Shown: positions 30,873 through 37,296, counted from the first letter of the stretch. The stretch: 64,000 bases of DNA from an uncultured Pelagibacteraceae bacterium (GCA_902587085.1 CACIJX010000002.1:6158-70157); one strand, 5' to 3'. Notes: generated by a model from the sequence alone, not told the origin. A program made the numbers and translations.

Positions 30873-30949
30873 GCAGCAGTAGCTCAGTTGGTTAGAGCAC
30901 TAGTTTGTGGAACTAGGGGTCGGTGGTTCGAATCCACCCTGCTGTACCA
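30873..30949 (+). tRNA. tRNA-His (anticodon GTG), CCA encoded, no encoded G-1, G1:U72, A73
   Basis: Hand-folded 77-nt cloverleaf. Acceptor GCAGCAG/CTGCTGT, D stem GCTC/GAGC, anticodon stem CTAGT/ACTAG with loop TTGTGGA, T arm GGTGG-TTCGAAT-CCACC, then ACCA. Confidence 0.92.
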
Positions 30950-32288: not shown

Positions 32289-33318
32289 AAATATAATAAA
32301 AGTATTTAAGAAAGATGGTTTTGTTTTATCAGAACCAGATGTTCTTTTAGACTCAGATTATATAATCGAAAGATCTGGTGAGAATTTTAGGAAGATAATG
32401 CTAACTTTTGAGGACGATACCGGGAAAAGCATGTGTTTAAGACCAGATTTGACAGTTGCTTCGTGTATCAAATATTTGAAAGACAATTCTAAAGCAAACT
32501 CAAAAATATATTATTCTGGACAAGCTTACAGACGCTCAAAAAATTTAAAAGATAAAGTTATCAATTATCAAATAGGAGTAGAAATTTTTGGATCAAAAAA
32601 TAAGTCTATCGATGATTTAAAAGTTTTAAAAACAATTACTAATTCAATCAATAAAATAAAAGTTAAAAATACATCAATTAAAGTCGGTGATGTTAGTTTA
32701 TTCAAAAATTTAATCGAGTCTTTAAAAATACCTGAGAGATGGAGATTGAGATTAAAAAGACACTTTTGGAGACCACAATATTTTCAGGATTTACTTGATA
32801 GACTTGAAACAAATTCAGACGTTGATCCTACTACAGTTGAACTAGATAAGAAAAAATTTTTTAAAATGAAAAATATTGATCAAAACAAAGAAATCGCAAA
32901 CCGTAAGGTTTCAGAAATTATAACTAGATTTGATAGAAAAATTAAAGATCCAAGATCATTTAAAGAAAATAAAAAAACCGTAAAAATTATTAAAGATTTT
33001 TTAAAGATCAATTGTCCTATAGAAAATTTAGAAAAAACATTAAATAATTTTACTAACAAAAATAACTTAGGGAAAAATATTTTTAGAGACATATCGAGTT
33101 TAAAAAACTTATCAAAACTAAATTCAAAAATAATTTTCTCGACTAATTTTGGAAGGGATATTGAATATTATTCGGGATTAGTTTTTGAGATATATAATTC
33201 CTCAAAAAAAGAAATTGCAAGGGGAGGAAGATACGATGGTTTATTAAAAAGCCTTGGATCAAAGAAAAATATTTCAGCGGTTGGAGCAGCAATAAATTTA
33301 AACAATTTAAAGATATGA
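32266..33318 (+). CDS. hisZ: ATP phosphoribosyltransferase regulatory subunit (HisRS paralogue)
   Basis: 350-aa HisS-like protein without an anticodon-binding domain (..GGRYDGL..). It lies between hisS and a short-form hisG. Confidence 0.8.
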   Translation: MKSKNYSENIIKVFKKDGFVLSEPDVLLDSDYIIERSGENFRKIMLTFEDDTGKSMCLRPDLTVASCIKYLKDNSKANSKIYYSGQAYRRSKNLKDKVINYQIGVEIFGSKNKSIDDLKVLKTITNSINKIKVKNTSIKVGDVSLFKNLIESLKIPERWRLRLKRHFWRPQYFQDLLDRLETNSDVDPTTVELDKKKFFKMKNIDQNKEIANRKVSEIITRFDRKIKDPRSFKENKKTVKIIKDFLKINCPIENLEKTLNNFTNKNNLGKNIFRDISSLKNLSKLNSKIIFSTNFGRDIEYYSGLVFEIYNSSKKEIARGGRYDGLLKSLGSKKNISAVGAAINLNNLKI

Positions 33319-33986
33319 AAAATATAATAACAGTAGGACTACCGAGCAAAGGAAGATTACGAGAAGGAGCAATAGATTTTTTTAAAAAAAATAATTATAA
33401 CCTTACCTCAAATGGCGGTGAAAGAAATTATTTTGCGGATGTTGAAAATTTTCCGAATATAAAAATCATTTATTTACATGCAAAGGAAATTATTCAAAGA
33501 CTTGGTGATGGCACACTTGATATAGGAATTTCAGGCTTAGATCTTTTAAATGAGTCGTCATCAAACTTAAAGAATAAAATTGAGGTTAATAAAAAATTAG
33601 ATTTTGGTTCAGCAAATGTTGTGATTGCTATTCCTGATGATTGGATTGATGTTCAAACTGTTGCAGATTTAGAAGAAGTATCTTTTGACTTTAGAGACAA
33701 AAAGAATACGAGATTAAGAGTTGCAACCAAATATCCCAATTTAACAAATACTTTTCTTGTTTCTAAAGGTGTTACACAATACAAATTAGTCCCCAGTCTT
33801 GGCGCAACTGAAACTTACCCATTCATTGGCTCATCAGAAATTATTACAGATATAACTTCAACTGGAAAAACACTAAAAGATAATAATCTTAGAGTTTTAA
33901 AAGATGGTTTAATTCTTCAATCAAAAGCATGTTTGTTGGTTGCTAAAAAATCTTCAAAAAAAGTAAAGTCATTGAAAATTTTTTAA
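33315..33986 (+). CDS. hisG: ATP phosphoribosyltransferase, short form
   Basis: 223 aa. Its start forms an ATGA overlap with hisZ. Confidence 0.85.
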   Translation: MKNIITVGLPSKGRLREGAIDFFKKNNYNLTSNGGERNYFADVENFPNIKIIYLHAKEIIQRLGDGTLDIGISGLDLLNESSSNLKNKIEVNKKLDFGSANVVIAIPDDWIDVQTVADLEEVSFDFRDKKNTRLRVATKYPNLTNTFLVSKGVTQYKLVPSLGATETYPFIGSSEIITDITSTGKTLKDNNLRVLKDGLILQSKACLLVAKKSSKKVKSLKIF

Positions 33987-34017: not shown

Positions 34018-34803
34018 ATGAGAAAACTTAAAATACTTATTATGGGATTGCCCGGTTCAGGCAAAACTTATCTTAGCGAACGTCTTGCTCCACTCTTAAA
34101 CGCAGAATGGTTAAACGCTGATAAAGTAAGAAAAAAAGCTAATGATTGGGATTTTAGTACTGAAGGCAGAATTAGACAAGCCAATAGAATGAAGAAGTTA
34201 GCGGAAGAAGCACTTAAAAACGATAAACATGTTATCGCAGATTTTGTTTGTCCAACAAAAAAAACAAGGGATGATTTTAAACCAGACTTTACGGTGTGGA
34301 TGAACACAATAAAACAAGGTAGATTTGAGGATACAAATAAAATTTTTGAAACACCTGAAAAAAATCAAGTAAACTTTGAGATAAAAGAAAAGAACGCAGA
34401 TTTATTCAAATTTATTGTTGCAGATAAAATTCAAGGTTACCAGTGGGATAATAAAAAACCCACCGCACAAATGTTAGGTAGGTGGCAACCCTGGCATGAT
34501 GGCCACCAAAAGTTATTTGAGGAAATATTAAAAAAAACTGGACAAGTGAACATAATGGTTAGAGATGTTAAAGGGGTGGGAGATAATCCTTTTGATTTTG
34601 AAACAGTTAAAAAGAAAATTGAAGAAAGGCTAATTGATTTTAAAAGTAGGGTAAAGGTTGCTTTAGTTCCAAATATTACAAACATTTGCTACGGAAGGGG
34701 TGTTGGATATAAAATTGAAGAAATTGTTTTGGAAGAGTCGATACAAAAAATATCTGCAACTGAAATAAGAAAACAAATGAAAGCAAAAGGTGAATTGAAA
34801 TAG
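34018..34803 (+). CDS. fusion protein: N-terminal adenylylsulfate(APS)-kinase-like P-loop kinase plus C-terminal minimal HxGH (cytidylyltransferase-like) nucleotidyltransferase
   Basis: The N-terminal half aligns by eye to CysC: GLPGSGKTYL, WLNADKVRKKANDWDFSTEGRIRQANRMKKLAE (compare [30 protein letters not shown]) and VIADFVCP (compare VLTAFISP). The C-terminal half has GRWQPWHDGH (HxGH motif) and ISATEIR (ISxTxIR motif). ATG 34018 is preferred over the track's TTG at 33988. Confidence 0.6.
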   Translation: MRKLKILIMGLPGSGKTYLSERLAPLLNAEWLNADKVRKKANDWDFSTEGRIRQANRMKKLAEEALKNDKHVIADFVCPTKKTRDDFKPDFTVWMNTIKQGRFEDTNKIFETPEKNQVNFEIKEKNADLFKFIVADKIQGYQWDNKKPTAQMLGRWQPWHDGHQKLFEEILKKTGQVNIMVRDVKGVGDNPFDFETVKKKIEERLIDFKSRVKVALVPNITNICYGRGVGYKIEEIVLEESIQKISATEIRKQMKAKGELK

Positions 34804-34810
34804 ACTTTTC

Positions 34811-35566
34811 ATGAAAAAGTGCTATCTCCACATAGGAAATTTCAAAACTGGAAGTTCTTCGCTCCAAGCATTTTTGTACCAAAATAGAAAAATTTTTAGA
34901 AAACATAGTATAGAACCAGTATATGAAAAAAATTTTTTCAAAAAAACAATTAATAACCTTAAGTTATTTAAGAATTTTAATGATCAAGATCAGAACAAAT
35001 TGAGAGAGAAATTCAAAAAATATAAAAAATTTAAAAATATAATAATAAGCTCGGAATACTTTTCTTGTATGTCAAATGATGAGTATAAAATTATTTTTTT
35101 AAAAAAATTTTTGAAAAAATCAGGTTTTAAACCTATTATTATTTTTTATTATAGAGATGACGATGACTATCTCTATTCTTTTTACTCAGAACAATTAAAG
35201 CAACGCAAAAATATAGAGATAGAAAATGTTTTTAAGTTTTTGGAAAAAATTTATAAGTTTGGATATTATTTTAATAAAAAAAATAAAATATATTATTTAA
35301 GTCAAAAGTACTTTTTTGATAAAAAGATAATATTCAAAACATGGAAAAAAATTTTTAAATCTGACTTCAAATATTATAAATATTACAAAGAGGATGATAA
35401 AAGAATTTACTTTAATTTTTTAAGTTTTGTAAATATTAAAGGAAAGGAAAAATTTAACTTCCCAATAAAAAGAAATATTTCTAGAAAAATACGACCCTGG
35501 AATTTAATGAGGATTGGTCTTTATCTATTCTTAAAATTTCATTCTAAGAAATTATTAAATAGGTAA
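34811..35566 (+). CDS. sulfotransferase-fold protein (both PAPS-binding motifs recognisable)
   Basis: 251 aa. A 5'-PSB-like motif HIGNFKTGSSSLQ lies at the N-terminus and a 3'-PB-like motif YYRDDDDYLYSFYSE mid-protein. The protein is very Lys/Phe/Tyr-rich, and no further homology is recognisable by eye. Confidence 0.5.
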   Translation: MKKCYLHIGNFKTGSSSLQAFLYQNRKIFRKHSIEPVYEKNFFKKTINNLKLFKNFNDQDQNKLREKFKKYKKFKNIIISSEYFSCMSNDEYKIIFLKKFLKKSGFKPIIIFYYRDDDDYLYSFYSEQLKQRKNIEIENVFKFLEKIYKFGYYFNKKNKIYYLSQKYFFDKKIIFKTWKKIFKSDFKYYKYYKEDDKRIYFNFLSFVNIKGKEKFNFPIKRNISRKIRPWNLMRIGLYLFLKFHSKKLLNR

Positions 35567-35570
35567 AAAA

Positions 35571-35602
35571 AAACGCCAGATAAATATATTTATCTGGCGT
35601 TT
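35571..35602. terminator. bidirectional rho-independent terminator between the sulfotransferase-like gene and groEL
   Basis: An 11-12 bp stem pairs CGCCAGATAAAT with ATTTATCTGGCG. It is flanked by A9 on one side and TTT on the other, which gives a T9 tail for the minus-strand groEL transcript. Confidence 0.8.

Positions 35603-35625: not shown

Positions 35626-37296
<1,671 letters not shown>

What the first reader, a model, noticed from the sequence alone, without database searches (positions are those of the whole stretch)
34018..35566. Two-gene cassette between hisG and groEL: APS-kinase-like domain fused to a minimal HxGH nucleotidyltransferase, plus a sulfotransferase-fold protein (possible miniature activated-donor synthesis and transfer module)
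Seen directly, in gene 1 (34018..34803):
- The N-terminal half matches adenylylsulfate kinase CysC motif by motif: GLPGSGKT, LNADKVR...DWDFSTEGRIRQANRMKKLAE and VIADFVCP.
- The C-terminal ~110 residues carry the two signature motifs of the cytidylyltransferase-like superfamily, GRWQPWHDGH and ISATEIR.

Seen directly, in gene 2 (34811..35566, starting 8 nt downstream):
- It carries the two PAP(S)-binding motifs of sulfotransferases: a 5'-PSB-like KTGSSSLQ and a 3'-PB-like RDDDDYLYSFY.
- The pair is closed off by the only strong hairpin terminator in this part of the window.

Inference:
- The three domains cover nucleotidyl transfer, 3'-phosphorylation, and transfer from a 3'-phospho-nucleotide donor. 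That is the logic of PAPS synthesis plus sulfation.
- The kinase-then-nucleotidyltransferase domain order matches metazoan PAPS synthase. However, the nucleotidyltransferase here is far too small to be a canonical ATP sulfurylase.
- CysC-like kinases can act on other donors, for example the CDP-amidate kinase Cj1415 of Campylobacter jejuni (Taylor and Raushel 2018). The activated group therefore need not be sulfate.
- SAR11 is reported to lack assimilatory sulfate reduction (Tripp et al. 2008). A dedicated donor-making module would then serve modification of a lipid, glycan or metabolite rather than assimilation.
Basis: partly seen in the sequence, partly recalled or inferred. Interest (0 to 1): 0.7.

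Follow-up and report, generated by a model that had tools for sequence, protein, structure and literature searches.

The report
Compact sulfate-activation enzyme plus sulfotransferase-like gene
A SAR11 marine bacterium carries, between hisG and groEL, a fused APS-kinase/mini-nucleotidyltransferase gene followed by a sulfotransferase-fold gene; comparison with other genomes suggests that the small nucleotidyltransferase is the ATP-sulfurylase activity that SAR11 has been reported to lack.

Summary
Gene 1 (34018..34803) has an N-terminal APS-kinase-like domain and a 123-residue C-terminal HxGH nucleotidyltransferase (NT) whose closest solved relatives are archaeal/NadM-type NMNATs. Gene 2 (34811..35566) is a SAR11-only protein with no Pfam hit, a confident model whose best full-length structural matches are sulfotransferases, and invariant PAPS-motif-like residues.

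The exact gene pair is not conserved; it was seen only in this lineage. The parts recur together in several forms:
- In most Pelagibacteraceae the kinase and NT are two overlapping genes. In this window, in other SAR11 lineages, in other Alphaproteobacteria and in some phages they are fused.
- A kinase-only gene precedes gene 2 in 10 other loci.
- Fused homologs sit next to unrelated sulfotransferases in Bradyrhizobium, an Acetobacteraceae MAG and other SAR11.
- In five Pelagibacteraceae species a stand-alone NT gene lies directly upstream of an aprM-like gene, aprB, aprA and tauE. That is the position sat holds in Allochromatium vinosum.

Best reading: a compact PAPS-supply enzyme, made of an APS kinase and a candidate non-canonical sulfate adenylyltransferase, feeding a sulfotransferase that probably modifies the envelope. 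The kinase and sulfotransferase assignments are well supported. The NT's substrate is inferred from genomic context only. No paper in the searched library describes this family. Interest is high and biochemistry is needed.

The parts
34018..34803 (+). Gene 1: fused APS-kinase-like domain plus minimal HxGH nucleotidyltransferase (261 aa)
   Evidence: ORF. Pfam and NCBIfam hits. AF2 pLDDT 96.4. More than 8000 homologs. Identical in independent contig L090.
34018..34431 (+). Kinase domain (residues 1-138), a short APS-kinase-like P-loop kinase
   Evidence: PF01583 30.8 bits, above cut-off. Profile against PDB APS kinases E 3e-15. Foldseek top hits 3cr7/2ofw/1m7g, TM (target-normalised) 0.6-0.7. 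Found as a separate ~136-aa gene in most Pelagibacteraceae.
34045..34068 (+). Walker A P-loop, GLPGSGKT
   Evidence: Translation. G10, G15 and K16 are invariant or nearly so in 48 diverse homologs.
34111..34170 (+). APS-kinase substrate-site motifs LNADKVR ... WDFSTEGR
   Evidence: Aligns to LDGDxxR ... GFSxEDR of APS kinases 2yvu and 2gks. R38 is invariant; F46, R51 and Q54 are nearly invariant.
34432..34800 (+). NT domain (residues 139-261), an NMNAT-like HxGH nucleotidyltransferase and candidate sulfate adenylyltransferase
   Evidence: Profile against PDB: NadM 2qjt 1.8e-9, MJ0541 2.7e-8, no Sat hit. Separate ~124-aa gene in most Pelagibacteraceae. A stand-alone copy lies upstream of the aprM-like gene, aprB, aprA and tauE in L024-L028.
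34477..34506 (+). GRWQPWHDGH, the HxGH signature
   Evidence: Translation. G, R, Q, P, H, G and H are invariant in 24 NT domains.
34690..34710 (+). YGRGVGY loop (YGRDVGY in non-SAR11 homologs)
   Evidence: Y, G, R, V, G and Y are invariant. No NMNAT stretch aligned to this loop in the printed profile-to-PDB alignments. Parallels the GRD loop of ATP sulfurylase (PMC3779200).
34750..34770 (+). ISATEIR, the superfamily SxTxxR motif
   Evidence: S and R are invariant. Aligns to SGTEIRR of MJ0541.
34811..35566 (+). Gene 2: SAR11-restricted sulfotransferase-fold protein (251 aa) with an amphipathic C-terminal helix and low GC
   Evidence: AF2 pLDDT 89.8. Foldseek best hit is sulfotransferase 3rnl, then 1nst. 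About 57 homologs. GC 18-22% against about 32% for gene 1.
34829..34861 (+). 5'-PSB-like strand-loop-helix, HIGNFKTGSSS
   Evidence: H7, G9, K12 and T13 are invariant in 45 sequences, including 25-30% identical relatives. Strand 2-9 and helix 15-24 in the model.
35153..35179 (+). 3'-PB-like motif RDDDDYLYS (R115-x7-S123)
   Evidence: R115 and S123 are invariant. R115 follows strand 106-114 and S123 lies within helix 120-129 in the model.
35571..35602 (.). 14-bp hairpin between the convergent gene 2 and groEL
   Evidence: Terminator scan. The T-run is on the - strand (groEL side), and an A-run lies on the gene 2 side.

Best explanation
Overall model. The cassette is a small sulfation module sitting in a variable islet between hisG and groEL of a SAR11 genome.

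Gene 1 is a compact PAPS-supply enzyme.
- Its C-terminal 123-residue HxGH nucleotidyltransferase is proposed to interconvert ATP + sulfate and APS + PPi. This step is inferred.
- Its N-terminal short APS-kinase domain phosphorylates the 3'-OH of APS to give PAPS. The fold and motifs are shown; the activity is inferred.

Gene 2 is a divergent sulfotransferase-fold protein that keeps the Lys/Thr (5'-phosphate) and Arg...Ser (3'-phosphate) PAPS-binding positions. It would transfer the sulfuryl group to an unknown acceptor. An envelope glycan or lipid is likely, given its amphipathic C-terminal helix and the glycan genes that share this islet in other strains (inferred).

The same two catalytic parts occur across Alphaproteobacteria, either as a translationally coupled gene pair or as a fusion. 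In SAR11 lineages the NT alone sits in the sat position of an aprMBA operon. There it would run in the reverse direction, APS + PPi to ATP + sulfate, during sulfite oxidation.
For: Kinase:
- PF01583 scores above its cut-off.
- The family profile hits PDB APS kinases at E 3e-15, and the Foldseek top hits are APS kinases.
- The APS-site motifs align with 2yvu and 2gks and are conserved in 48 homologs.
- Smith et al. 2016 list one cysC in SAR11 strains, with the same presence/absence pattern as aprA.

Link between kinase and NT:
- They are fused in the window, in L001-L008, L128 and L129, in all non-SAR11 Alphaproteobacteria sampled, and in phages.
- In about 40 Pelagibacteraceae species they are adjacent genes, with a 4-bp overlap in the one junction read in detail, L034.

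Link between NT and APS:
- A stand-alone NT gene (77-82% identical to the window's domain) lies directly upstream of a 4-TM protein with no Pfam domain, then AprB (PF12139, 8e-32), AprA, a 116-aa protein and TauE (2e-47). This holds in five different species, L024-L028. In L030 the NT gene is followed directly by tauE.
- In A. vinosum, sat lies immediately upstream of aprMBA and is co-transcribed with it (PMC3779200).
- SAR11 is reported to lack sat and cysDN while aprAB is core (PMC5069961; PMC12636525).
- Some SAR11 keep the NT but have lost the kinase.

Link to sulfotransfer:
- A kinase-only gene precedes gene 2 in 10 loci.
- Fused homologs are followed by a TPR+Sulfotransfer_3 protein (3.6e-50, Bradyrhizobium), a Sulfotransfer_1 protein (SAR11, L072), a gene-2-family protein (6.8e-9, Acetobacteraceae, L029), and a sulfotransferase-like 313-aa protein (L128).

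Motif order: the NT has R-x-Q-P-x-H-x-G-H, then GR(D), then S-x-T-x-x-R. This parallels QXRN-P-HXXH, GRD and SGTxxR of Sat.

Gene 2: the confident model's best match is a sulfotransferase, the invariant residues are K12, T13, R115 and S123, and distant relatives give weak Sulfotransfer_1/3 hits.
Against: - The NT has no detectable sequence similarity to ATP sulfurylase, even at E<=10. Its nearest relatives are NMNATs.
- It lacks domains I and III of Sat, and in SAR11 the GRD aspartate is a glycine.
- Its fold neighbours could not be examined separately, because kinase hits filled the Foldseek list.
- The apr linkage is one inherited arrangement in a single group of related species, so it counts as roughly one evolutionary event.
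- In the main SAR11 group the pair sits among C1/osmolyte and acyl-CoA genes, not sulfur genes.
- Phage copies have no obvious sulfotransferase partner.
- A close relative of the kinase is fused to an RmlA-type nucleotidyltransferase (P0269). Kinases of this clade may therefore also act on other nucleotide-linked donors.
- Gene 2 has no significant sequence hit to any sulfotransferase family, and its structural match is modest (TM 0.42-0.52).
- Most gene 2 loci have no adjacent kinase.
- No activity has been measured.
Confidence: 0.5

Rival explanations
1. NadR-like NAD salvage enzyme. The NT is a true NMN adenylyltransferase and the kinase phosphorylates nicotinamide riboside (NR to NMN to NAD). 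Gene 2 would be unrelated.
For: - NMNATs are the only significant solved relatives of the NT: NadM 1.8e-9, MJ0541 2.7e-8.
- NCBIfam gives weak NMNAT hits, and a PHROG NMNAT family hits weakly.
- A kinase joined to an NMNAT is the known NadR architecture (own knowledge).
- Occurrence in phages would fit NAD-salvage auxiliary genes (own knowledge).
Against: - The kinase matches APS kinase, not the NadR kinase domain. The NadR structures in PDB hit the profile only weakly: 6gye through the P-loop stretch (positions 4-30), 8x7f and 1lw7 through the NT region. Pfam AAA_28 scores 0.0026 against 3e-7 for APS_kinase.
- The NT is about 50 residues shorter than archaeal NMNAT. Only the first ~80 NMNAT residues and the SxTxxR motif align.
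- NCBIfam NMNAT scores are far below cut-off, 22.6 against 127.
- This reading does not explain the aprMBA-tauE linkage or the repeated sulfotransferase neighbours.
Confidence: 0.12
2. Only the kinase serves sulfation, making PAPS from APS supplied by AprBA. The NT would be an accessory or regulatory domain, or would act on another adenylate, and would not be a sulfurylase.
For: - A kinase-only gene, without NT, is enough next to gene 2 in 10 loci.
- AprBA can form APS from sulfite + AMP (PMC5069961).
- The NT shows no sequence similarity to Sat.
- Fungal Sat carries a non-catalytic APS-kinase-like regulatory domain, which is a precedent for regulatory pairing (own knowledge).
Against: - All catalytic-type residues of the NT (HxGH, SxTxxR, the GR loop) are invariant across 31-83% identical homologs.
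- The NT persists alone in apr operons and in genomes that have lost the kinase.
- The fusion also occurs next to sulfotransferases in non-SAR11 Alphaproteobacteria, where no apr gene was seen within the 6-kb flanks.
Confidence: 0.15
3. A donor other than sulfate, by the logic of the Campylobacter MeOPN pathway (Cj1416/Cj1415). The NT would make a nucleotide-linked group such as a phosphoramidate or another phospho-ester, the kinase would add the 3'-phosphate, and the sulfotransferase-fold protein would transfer that group.
For:
- A close kinase relative is fused to an RmlA-type NTP_transferase (P0269, PF00483 4.6e-15).
- Many fused homologs lie in glycan clusters.
Against: - No glutamine-kinase-like or amidohydrolase partner was seen in any neighbourhood examined.
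- The partner transferases include a canonical Sulfotransfer_3 protein.
- The NT is linked to APS reductase and TauE.
Confidence: 0.08
4. Alternative CoA synthase. The NT would act as a phosphopantetheine adenylyltransferase and the kinase as a dephospho-CoA 3'-kinase.
For: - JGI names some members 'phosphopantetheine adenylyltransferase'.
- The chemistry is analogous: adenylyl transfer followed by 3'-phosphorylation.
- In the main SAR11 group, and in L129, the neighbours are enoyl-CoA hydratase, a CoA-binding protein, and acyl-CoA dehydrogenase and synthetase.
Against: - PPAT hits are not significant, E 0.08-0.5.
- The kinase resembles APS kinase and no CoaE-like hit was seen.
- This reading gives no explanation for the sulfotransferase and apr neighbours.
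Confidence: 0.04

Closest known systems
Metazoan PAPS synthase (PAPSS1/2)
   Same: It has the same domain order, APS kinase at the N-terminus and adenylyltransferase at the C-terminus. It has the same proposed two-step chemistry. The kinase domains are homologous, since PAPSS1 kinase structures are among the top Foldseek and profile hits.
   Different: The window protein is 261 aa, against 630 residues for the PAPSS1 chain. Its C-terminal domain is 123 aa and NMNAT-like, not a Sat-family domain with a PUA-like domain I and a domain III. It gives no hit to Sat. The kinase has a shortened lid and C-terminal third.
sat-aprMBA operon of sulfur oxidisers (Allochromatium vinosum)
   Same: In five SAR11 species the stand-alone NT gene lies immediately upstream of a multi-TM protein without known domains, then aprB and aprA. 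That is the position of sat.
   Different: The gene in that position is a 126-aa HxGH nucleotidyltransferase instead of the roughly 400-aa Sat. In SAR11 the operon continues into a 116-aa protein and tauE. This arrangement is not in the window itself.
NodPQ-NodH of rhizobia (dedicated PAPS synthesis next to a sulfotransferase)
   Same: A donor-making enzyme is encoded beside the sulfotransferase that uses the donor. The fused homolog beside a TPR-Sulfotransfer_3 protein in Bradyrhizobium is the same logic.
   Different: NodPQ are CysD/CysN-CysC type proteins (a GTPase-coupled sulfurylase). Here a single small protein with an unrelated adenylyltransferase domain does the job.
Archaeal/NadM-type NMN adenylyltransferase
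   Same: It shares the GRxQPxHxGH signature, the NPF motif and the SxTxxR motif. About 40% identity over the first ~75 residues (read off the 2qjt alignment); profile E 1.8e-9.
   Different: It is about 50 residues shorter. It carries an invariant YGR(D/G)VGY loop to which no NMNAT stretch aligned. It is always coupled to an APS-kinase-like protein or to apr genes.
Cj1415/Cj1416 of the Campylobacter jejuni MeOPN pathway
   Different: This is a different nucleotidyltransferase class (recalled as not HxGH type; not checked here). No glutamine kinase or hydrolase partners were seen. The partner here has a sulfotransferase fold, and the context points to APS.

Membership tests
APS kinase (CysC, PF01583) | Walker A P-loop | tested here: met
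   GLPGSGKT at residues 10-17, conserved in homologs.
APS kinase (CysC, PF01583) | Family HMM score above the curated cut-off | tested here: met
   30.8 bits against 21.1, but only profile positions 4-93 of 152 match. NCBIfam equivalog cut-offs are not reached, 24.4 against 138.7.
APS kinase (CysC, PF01583) | APS-site motifs (DGDxxR, FSxxDR, FISP) | tested here: met
   NADKVR, FSTEGR and FVCP align to these motifs in 2yvu and 2gks. The first Asp is Asn. R38 is invariant; F46, R51, F76 and P79 are nearly invariant.
APS kinase (CysC, PF01583) | Full-length fold including the lid and C-terminal third | tested here: inconclusive
   Foldseek top hits are APS kinases, TM (target-normalised) 0.6-0.73. 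The domain is only about 138 aa, and sequence matches stop near profile position 90-112.
APS kinase (CysC, PF01583) | APS 3'-phosphorylation activity | not testable with these tools
   Needs an enzyme assay.
ATP sulfurylase (Sat) | Sequence membership in the Sat family | tested here: not met
   No Pfam ATP-sulfurylase hit. No Sat chain found by the NT profile at E<=10.
ATP sulfurylase (Sat) | HXXH motif preceded by the QXRN-P loop | tested here: inconclusive
   The domain has G-R-W-Q-P-W-H-D-G-H. R, Q, P and both H are present but in a different register from Q-x-R-N-P-x-H-x-x-H.
ATP sulfurylase (Sat) | GRD loop after a beta-strand | tested here: inconclusive
   An invariant Y-G-R-x-V-G-Y follows the PNI strand. 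It reads GRD in non-SAR11 homologs and GRG in the window.
ATP sulfurylase (Sat) | SGTxxR motif | tested here: met
   SATEIR. The motif is shared by the whole superfamily, NMNAT included, so it does not discriminate.
ATP sulfurylase (Sat) | Domain I (PUA-like) and domain III | tested here: not met
   The NT is 123 aa in total, whereas Sat has three domains (PMC3779200).
Archaeal/NadM NMNAT | GRFQPFHxGH signature and N-terminal half | tested here: met
   E 1.8e-9 to 2qjt and 2.7e-8 to 1f9a over profile positions 7-81.
Archaeal/NadM NMNAT | Full-length domain reaching family cut-offs | tested here: not met
   NCBIfam NMNAT models score 18.6-22.6 bits against cut-offs of 127-341. About 50 residues are missing between the PNI strand and SxTxxR.
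PAPS-dependent sulfotransferase (gene 2) | Sequence membership in a Sulfotransfer_* family | tested here: not met
   No Pfam, NCBIfam or PDB hit for gene 2. Only sub-threshold hits in distant relatives P0173-P0178.
PAPS-dependent sulfotransferase (gene 2) | Sulfotransferase fold | tested here: inconclusive
   Best Foldseek hit is 3rnl (E 9.5e-4, probability 0.99, TM 0.42). 1nst has TM (query-normalised) 0.52. P-loop kinases follow closely in the list.
PAPS-dependent sulfotransferase (gene 2) | 5'-PSB Lys/Thr in a strand-loop-helix and 3'-PB Arg...Ser | tested here: met
   K12, T13, R115 and S123 are invariant in 45 sequences. Their positions fit the model's secondary structure.
PAPS-dependent sulfotransferase (gene 2) | Catalytic base and sulfuryl-transfer activity | not testable with these tools
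   E82 and H7 are invariant candidates. An assay is needed.

The most novel reading that the evidence does not exclude
The roughly 125-residue NMNAT-like nucleotidyltransferase is a previously unrecognised, third kind of ATP sulfurylase. SAR11, the most abundant marine bacterium and reported to lack both sat and cysDN, would use it in two ways. It would complete AprBA-dependent sulfite oxidation (APS + PPi to ATP + sulfate). Coupled or fused to a minimal APS kinase, it would make PAPS for surface sulfation. Phages of Xanthomonadaceae carry the fused form as a one-gene sulfate-activation module.
Probability: 0.4. Interest if true: 0.85.

Novelty: new variant of a known kind. Interest (0 to 1): 0.7.

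Why it matters
SAR11 genomes are described as having an incomplete sulfur pathway: aprAB is core and under strong purifying selection, but no enzyme is known to connect APS with sulfate, and no source of PAPS is known for the sulfotransferases in its hypervariable surface-glycan islands. If the mini-nucleotidyltransferase is that enzyme, three things follow:
- A long-standing gap in the sulfur metabolism of the ocean's most abundant heterotroph is closed.
- A new and very small enzyme family is added for a central reaction of the sulfur cycle.
- Metagenomic sulfur budgets that score sat or cysDN would be undercounting this capacity.

It also gives a directly testable one-gene PAPS synthase that could be useful for biocatalytic sulfation. 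Even if the NT proves to be something else, the tight coupling of an NMNAT-like domain to an APS-kinase-like domain in bacteria and phages is uncharacterised.

Tried and rejected
- Fold neighbours of the NT domain alone.
- Direct sequence evidence for a Sat relationship. The NT profile against PDB at E<=10 gave none.
- First genome scan with the 48-sequence alignment. It failed because no stretch was conserved enough, and was repeated with 15 sequences.
- Whether gene 1 homologs generally sit between hisG and groEL or next to gene 2. None of 83 loci did.
- L022's downstream 321-aa protein as a gene 2 relative. No relation was found.
- The C-terminal domain of P0323 (kinase fusion with a YRSGST motif) as a sulfotransferase. 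This was not confirmed by hhalign or PDB search.
- Context of the distant gene 2 relative in the cyanobacterium Romeria. It was uninformative.
- Phage context of fused homologs. No sulfotransferase was present and the neighbours are mostly unknown.
- Nine literature searches found no description of the kinase-NT family.
- The CoA-synthase and NadR-like readings were considered and ranked low, for the reasons given under the rival explanations.
Full report
**1. What is in the window**

Two ORFs on the + strand, 34018..34803 (261 aa) and 34811..35566 (251 aa), lie between hisG (33315..33986) and the convergent groEL (35626..37287). A 14-bp-stem hairpin at 35571..35602 separates gene 2 from groEL. 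The scan scores its T-run on the groEL strand, so it is at best a shared terminator. Gene 2 has 18-22% GC against about 32% for gene 1 and its neighbours. Closest genome hits are Pelagibacteraceae (SAR11). An independent metagenome contig (L090) has the identical arrangement, so the fusion is not an assembly error.

**2. Gene 1, N-terminal domain**

- Pfam gives AAA_33 (4e-10) and APS_kinase (30.8 bits, cut-off 21.1) over residues 5-88.
- The best PDB sequence hit is the APS kinase 2yvu. The alignment pairs GLPGSGKT, NADKVR, FSTEGR...R and FVCP with the P-loop, DGDxxR, FSxEDR and FISP motifs of APS kinases.
- A profile of 48 diverse full-length homologs hits more than 20 APS-kinase structures at E 3e-15 to 1e-10.
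- The AlphaFold model (pLDDT 96.4) has APS kinases as its top Foldseek matches.
- The domain is short, about 138 aa. Sequence similarity fades after about residue 90-110, so the lid is reduced.
- Smith et al. 2016 list one "cysC" in five SAR11 strains, absent in HIMB114 and HIMB59. That is the same pattern as aprA.

**3. Gene 1, C-terminal domain**

- Pfam CTP_transf_like scores just below its cut-off.
- Profiles hit only NMN adenylyltransferases of the archaeal/NadM type: 1f9a at 2.6e-11, then 2qjt at 1.8e-9 and 1f9a at 2.7e-8.
- NadR (0.016) and PPAT (0.08) are marginal. No ATP sulfurylase appears even at E<=10.
- Only the first ~80 NMNAT residues and the SxTxxR motif align. The domain is about 50 residues shorter than NMNAT.
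- It carries an invariant Y-G-R-(D/G)-V-G-Y loop to which no NMNAT stretch aligned in the printed alignments.
- It is therefore a member of the HxGH superfamily nearest to NMNAT, but it fails the NMNAT family cut-offs.

**4. The fusion is one form of a widespread pair**

The search of 50% representatives gave 2697 clusters at E<=1e-3 (1386 at 1e-10, 143 at 1e-30), many of them full-length fusions at 33-51% identity. Eighty genome loci were fetched, and ORF clustering shows the following.

- In about 40 Pelagibacteraceae species the kinase (~136 aa) and the NT (~124 aa) are separate adjacent genes. The L034 junction, read in detail, overlaps by 4 bp.
- In six species an autotransporter gene lies between the two genes.
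- In about a dozen species only the NT is present.
- The two are fused in the window, in L001-L008, L128 and L129, in all sampled non-SAR11 Alphaproteobacteria (Bradyrhizobium, Hyphomicrobiaceae, Inquilinus, Stellaceae, Acetobacteraceae, Sphingomicrobium), and in phages of Xylella, Stenotrophomonas and Xanthomonas (39-43% identity; phrog_10255 "kinase").

Fusion and translational coupling both argue that the two activities work together.

**5. Gene 2**

- It has no Pfam, NCBIfam, PHROG or PDB sequence hit.
- Only about 57 homolog clusters exist. The only organism-level source names among them are one Candidatus Pelagibacter MAG and one cyanobacterium, and a few distant relatives are 300-345 aa long.
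- Invariant residues across 45 sequences are H7, G9, K12, T13, Q19, E82, F84, R115, S123, Y125 and N222.
- The model (pLDDT 89.8) places K12/T13 in a strand-loop-helix, R115 just after a strand, and S123 within the following helix. This is the layout of the 5'-PSB and 3'-PB PAPS sites (the motif definitions are from established sulfotransferase literature).
- The best Foldseek hit is a bacterial sulfotransferase (3rnl, E 9.5e-4, probability 0.99). The heparan N-sulfotransferase domain 1nst gives TM 0.52. P-loop kinases follow closely.
- Distant relatives give sub-threshold Sulfotransfer_1/3/4 hits, and UniRef names one of them a sulfotransferase-domain protein.
- I accept a sulfotransferase fold with moderate confidence. 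Formal family membership is not met.
- The C-terminal 20 residues form an amphipathic helix that does not pass a transmembrane threshold.

**6. Do the two genes co-occur?**

Not as such.

- None of 83 gene 1 loci has gene 2, hisG or groEL within 6 kb.
- Among roughly 45 gene 2 loci, the full fusion precedes gene 2 only in the window's lineage.
- In 10 loci a kinase-only gene of 145 aa, with no NT, sits between hisG and gene 2.
- In about 20 loci there is no kinase. In some of these the islet also holds methyltransferases, a GT2 glycosyltransferase and an 8-TM protein.

The hisG-groEL gap is therefore a small variable islet whose constant member is gene 2.

**7. Independent links to sulfur-nucleotide metabolism**

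(a) Sulfotransferase neighbours of fused or paired homologs:
- a TPR+Sulfotransfer_3 protein (3.6e-50) in Bradyrhizobium;
- an ASST-type arylsulfotransferase (8e-27) in Inquilinus;
- a Sulfotransfer_1 protein (above cut-off) in SAR11 locus L072;
- a gene-2-family protein (6.8e-9) in an Acetobacteraceae MAG;
- a 313-aa protein in SAR11 locus L128 that aligns motif-for-motif with gene 2 (hhalign E 2.7e-4).

Other copies lie in glycan clusters.

(b) The apr operon. In five different Pelagibacteraceae species (L024-L028) a stand-alone NT gene, 77-82% identical to the window's domain, lies directly upstream of this series on one strand:
- a multi-TM protein with no Pfam domain;
- AprB (8e-32);
- AprA (619 aa);
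- a 116-aa protein;
- TauE (2e-47).

A SuyB-like gene lies opposite. In L030 the NT gene is followed directly by tauE. In Allochromatium vinosum, sat lies immediately upstream of aprMBA and is co-transcribed with it, and AprM is a 5-TM protein with no known domain (PMC3779200). The NT gene therefore occupies the sat position.

(c) Published SAR11 gene content. SAR11 is reported to lack sat and cysDN, while aprAB is core and strongly conserved. Sulfotransferases are typical of its hypervariable surface-glycan region.

(d) Motif order. The NT motifs run R-x-Q-P-x-H-x-G-H, then GR(D), then S-x-T-x-x-R. This mirrors the QXRN-P/HXXH, GRD and SGTxxR motifs of Sat. It is weak evidence, because two of the three motifs are superfamily-wide.

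**8. Mechanism proposed**

- NT: ATP + sulfate <-> APS + PPi.
- Kinase: APS + ATP -> PAPS + ADP.
- Gene 2: PAPS + acceptor -> sulfated acceptor + PAP. cysQ, which recycles PAP, is listed in all seven SAR11-clade genomes tabulated by Smith et al..

What is shown: the folds, the motifs and the genomic linkages. What is inferred: every activity, the sulfate specificity of the NT, and the acceptor.

The model accounts for the kinase-only+gene 2 loci (APS supplied by AprBA or by an NT encoded elsewhere). It accounts for NT-only genomes (sulfite oxidation without sulfation). It also accounts for phage copies as a one-gene sulfate-activation auxiliary function.

**9. Rivals**

- NadR-like NAD salvage. 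This rests on the NMNAT similarity but does not fit the kinase family or the genomic context.
- Kinase-only function with an accessory NT.
- A non-sulfate donor. This is hinted at by a kinase fused to an RmlA-type nucleotidyltransferase, P0269.
- A CoA-synthase-like enzyme, suggested by the acyl-CoA neighbours in the main SAR11 group.

**10. Novelty and verdict**

No paper in the searched library describes the kinase-NT family. Source annotations read "kinase", "adenylylsulfate kinase" or "hypothetical". The APS-kinase part is a new, shortened member of a known family. The pairing with an NMNAT-like domain as a putative sulfurylase would be a new variant of PAPS synthase.

My confidence by part:
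- The cassette is a sulfation module whose kinase is an APS kinase: about 0.75.
- Gene 2 is a sulfotransferase: about 0.7.
- The NT is a sulfate adenylyltransferase: about 0.4-0.45.

Noticed in passing
window 30873..30949: A tRNA-His (GTG) gene sits immediately upstream of hisS-hisZ-hisG. The ORF finder's TTG start for hisS at 30888 reads through the tRNA (translation ...GRWFES...), so the real hisS start is further downstream.
   Followed up: partly
L087:4263-7801, also L088, L089, L107, L114: In other SAR11 strains the hisG-groEL gap holds gene 2 plus two methyltransferases, a GT2 glycosyltransferase and a 436-aa protein with at least 8 predicted TM segments and no Pfam hit. The gap is therefore a small variable islet of glycan-modification type, outside the main hypervariable region.
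   Followed up: partly
L032, L033, L036, L045, L049, L065 (e.g. L033:1292-5994): One or two autotransporter genes of about 770 aa (PF03797) are inserted between the kinase and NT genes in six Pelagibacteraceae genomes, splitting an otherwise overlapping gene pair.
   Followed up: no
P0269, P0323, P0267/P0308, P0188: The same kinase clade is fused to other partners: an RmlA-type NTP_transferase (P0269); a 200-aa domain with a YRSGST motif, not confirmed as a sulfotransferase (P0323); an unknown ~290-aa domain with a GDSF motif (P0267, P0308); and an N-terminal DUF4118 membrane domain ahead of the kinase-NT fusion (P0188).
   Followed up: partly
L130:6992-7729 (Xylella phage Sano gp35); L131:6004-6735 (Stenotrophomonas phage DLP_6): Full-length kinase-NT fusions (39-43% identical, phrog_10255) are encoded in the early-gene regions of phages of Xanthomonadaceae. 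In Sano the gene lies about 3 kb downstream of a 'cysteine dioxygenase' gene and about 1.3 kb downstream of a MazG-like gene. Their role in phage infection is unknown.
   Followed up: partly
L013:6832-8244 (Inquilinus limosus): Here the fused homolog is followed by an ASST-type arylsulfotransferase (PF14269). From my own knowledge that family is PAPS-independent, so this pairing does not fit a simple PAPS-supply reading.
   Followed up: no
L024:9598-9945 and equivalents in L025-L028: A conserved 116-aa protein with no Pfam hit lies between aprA and tauE in the NT-aprMBA-tauE cluster.
   Followed up: no
window 34811..35566: Gene 2 has a much lower GC content (18-22%) than its neighbours (about 30-33%). 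Published descriptions of horizontally acquired surface-modification genes in SAR11 hypervariable regions report the same feature.
   Followed up: partly
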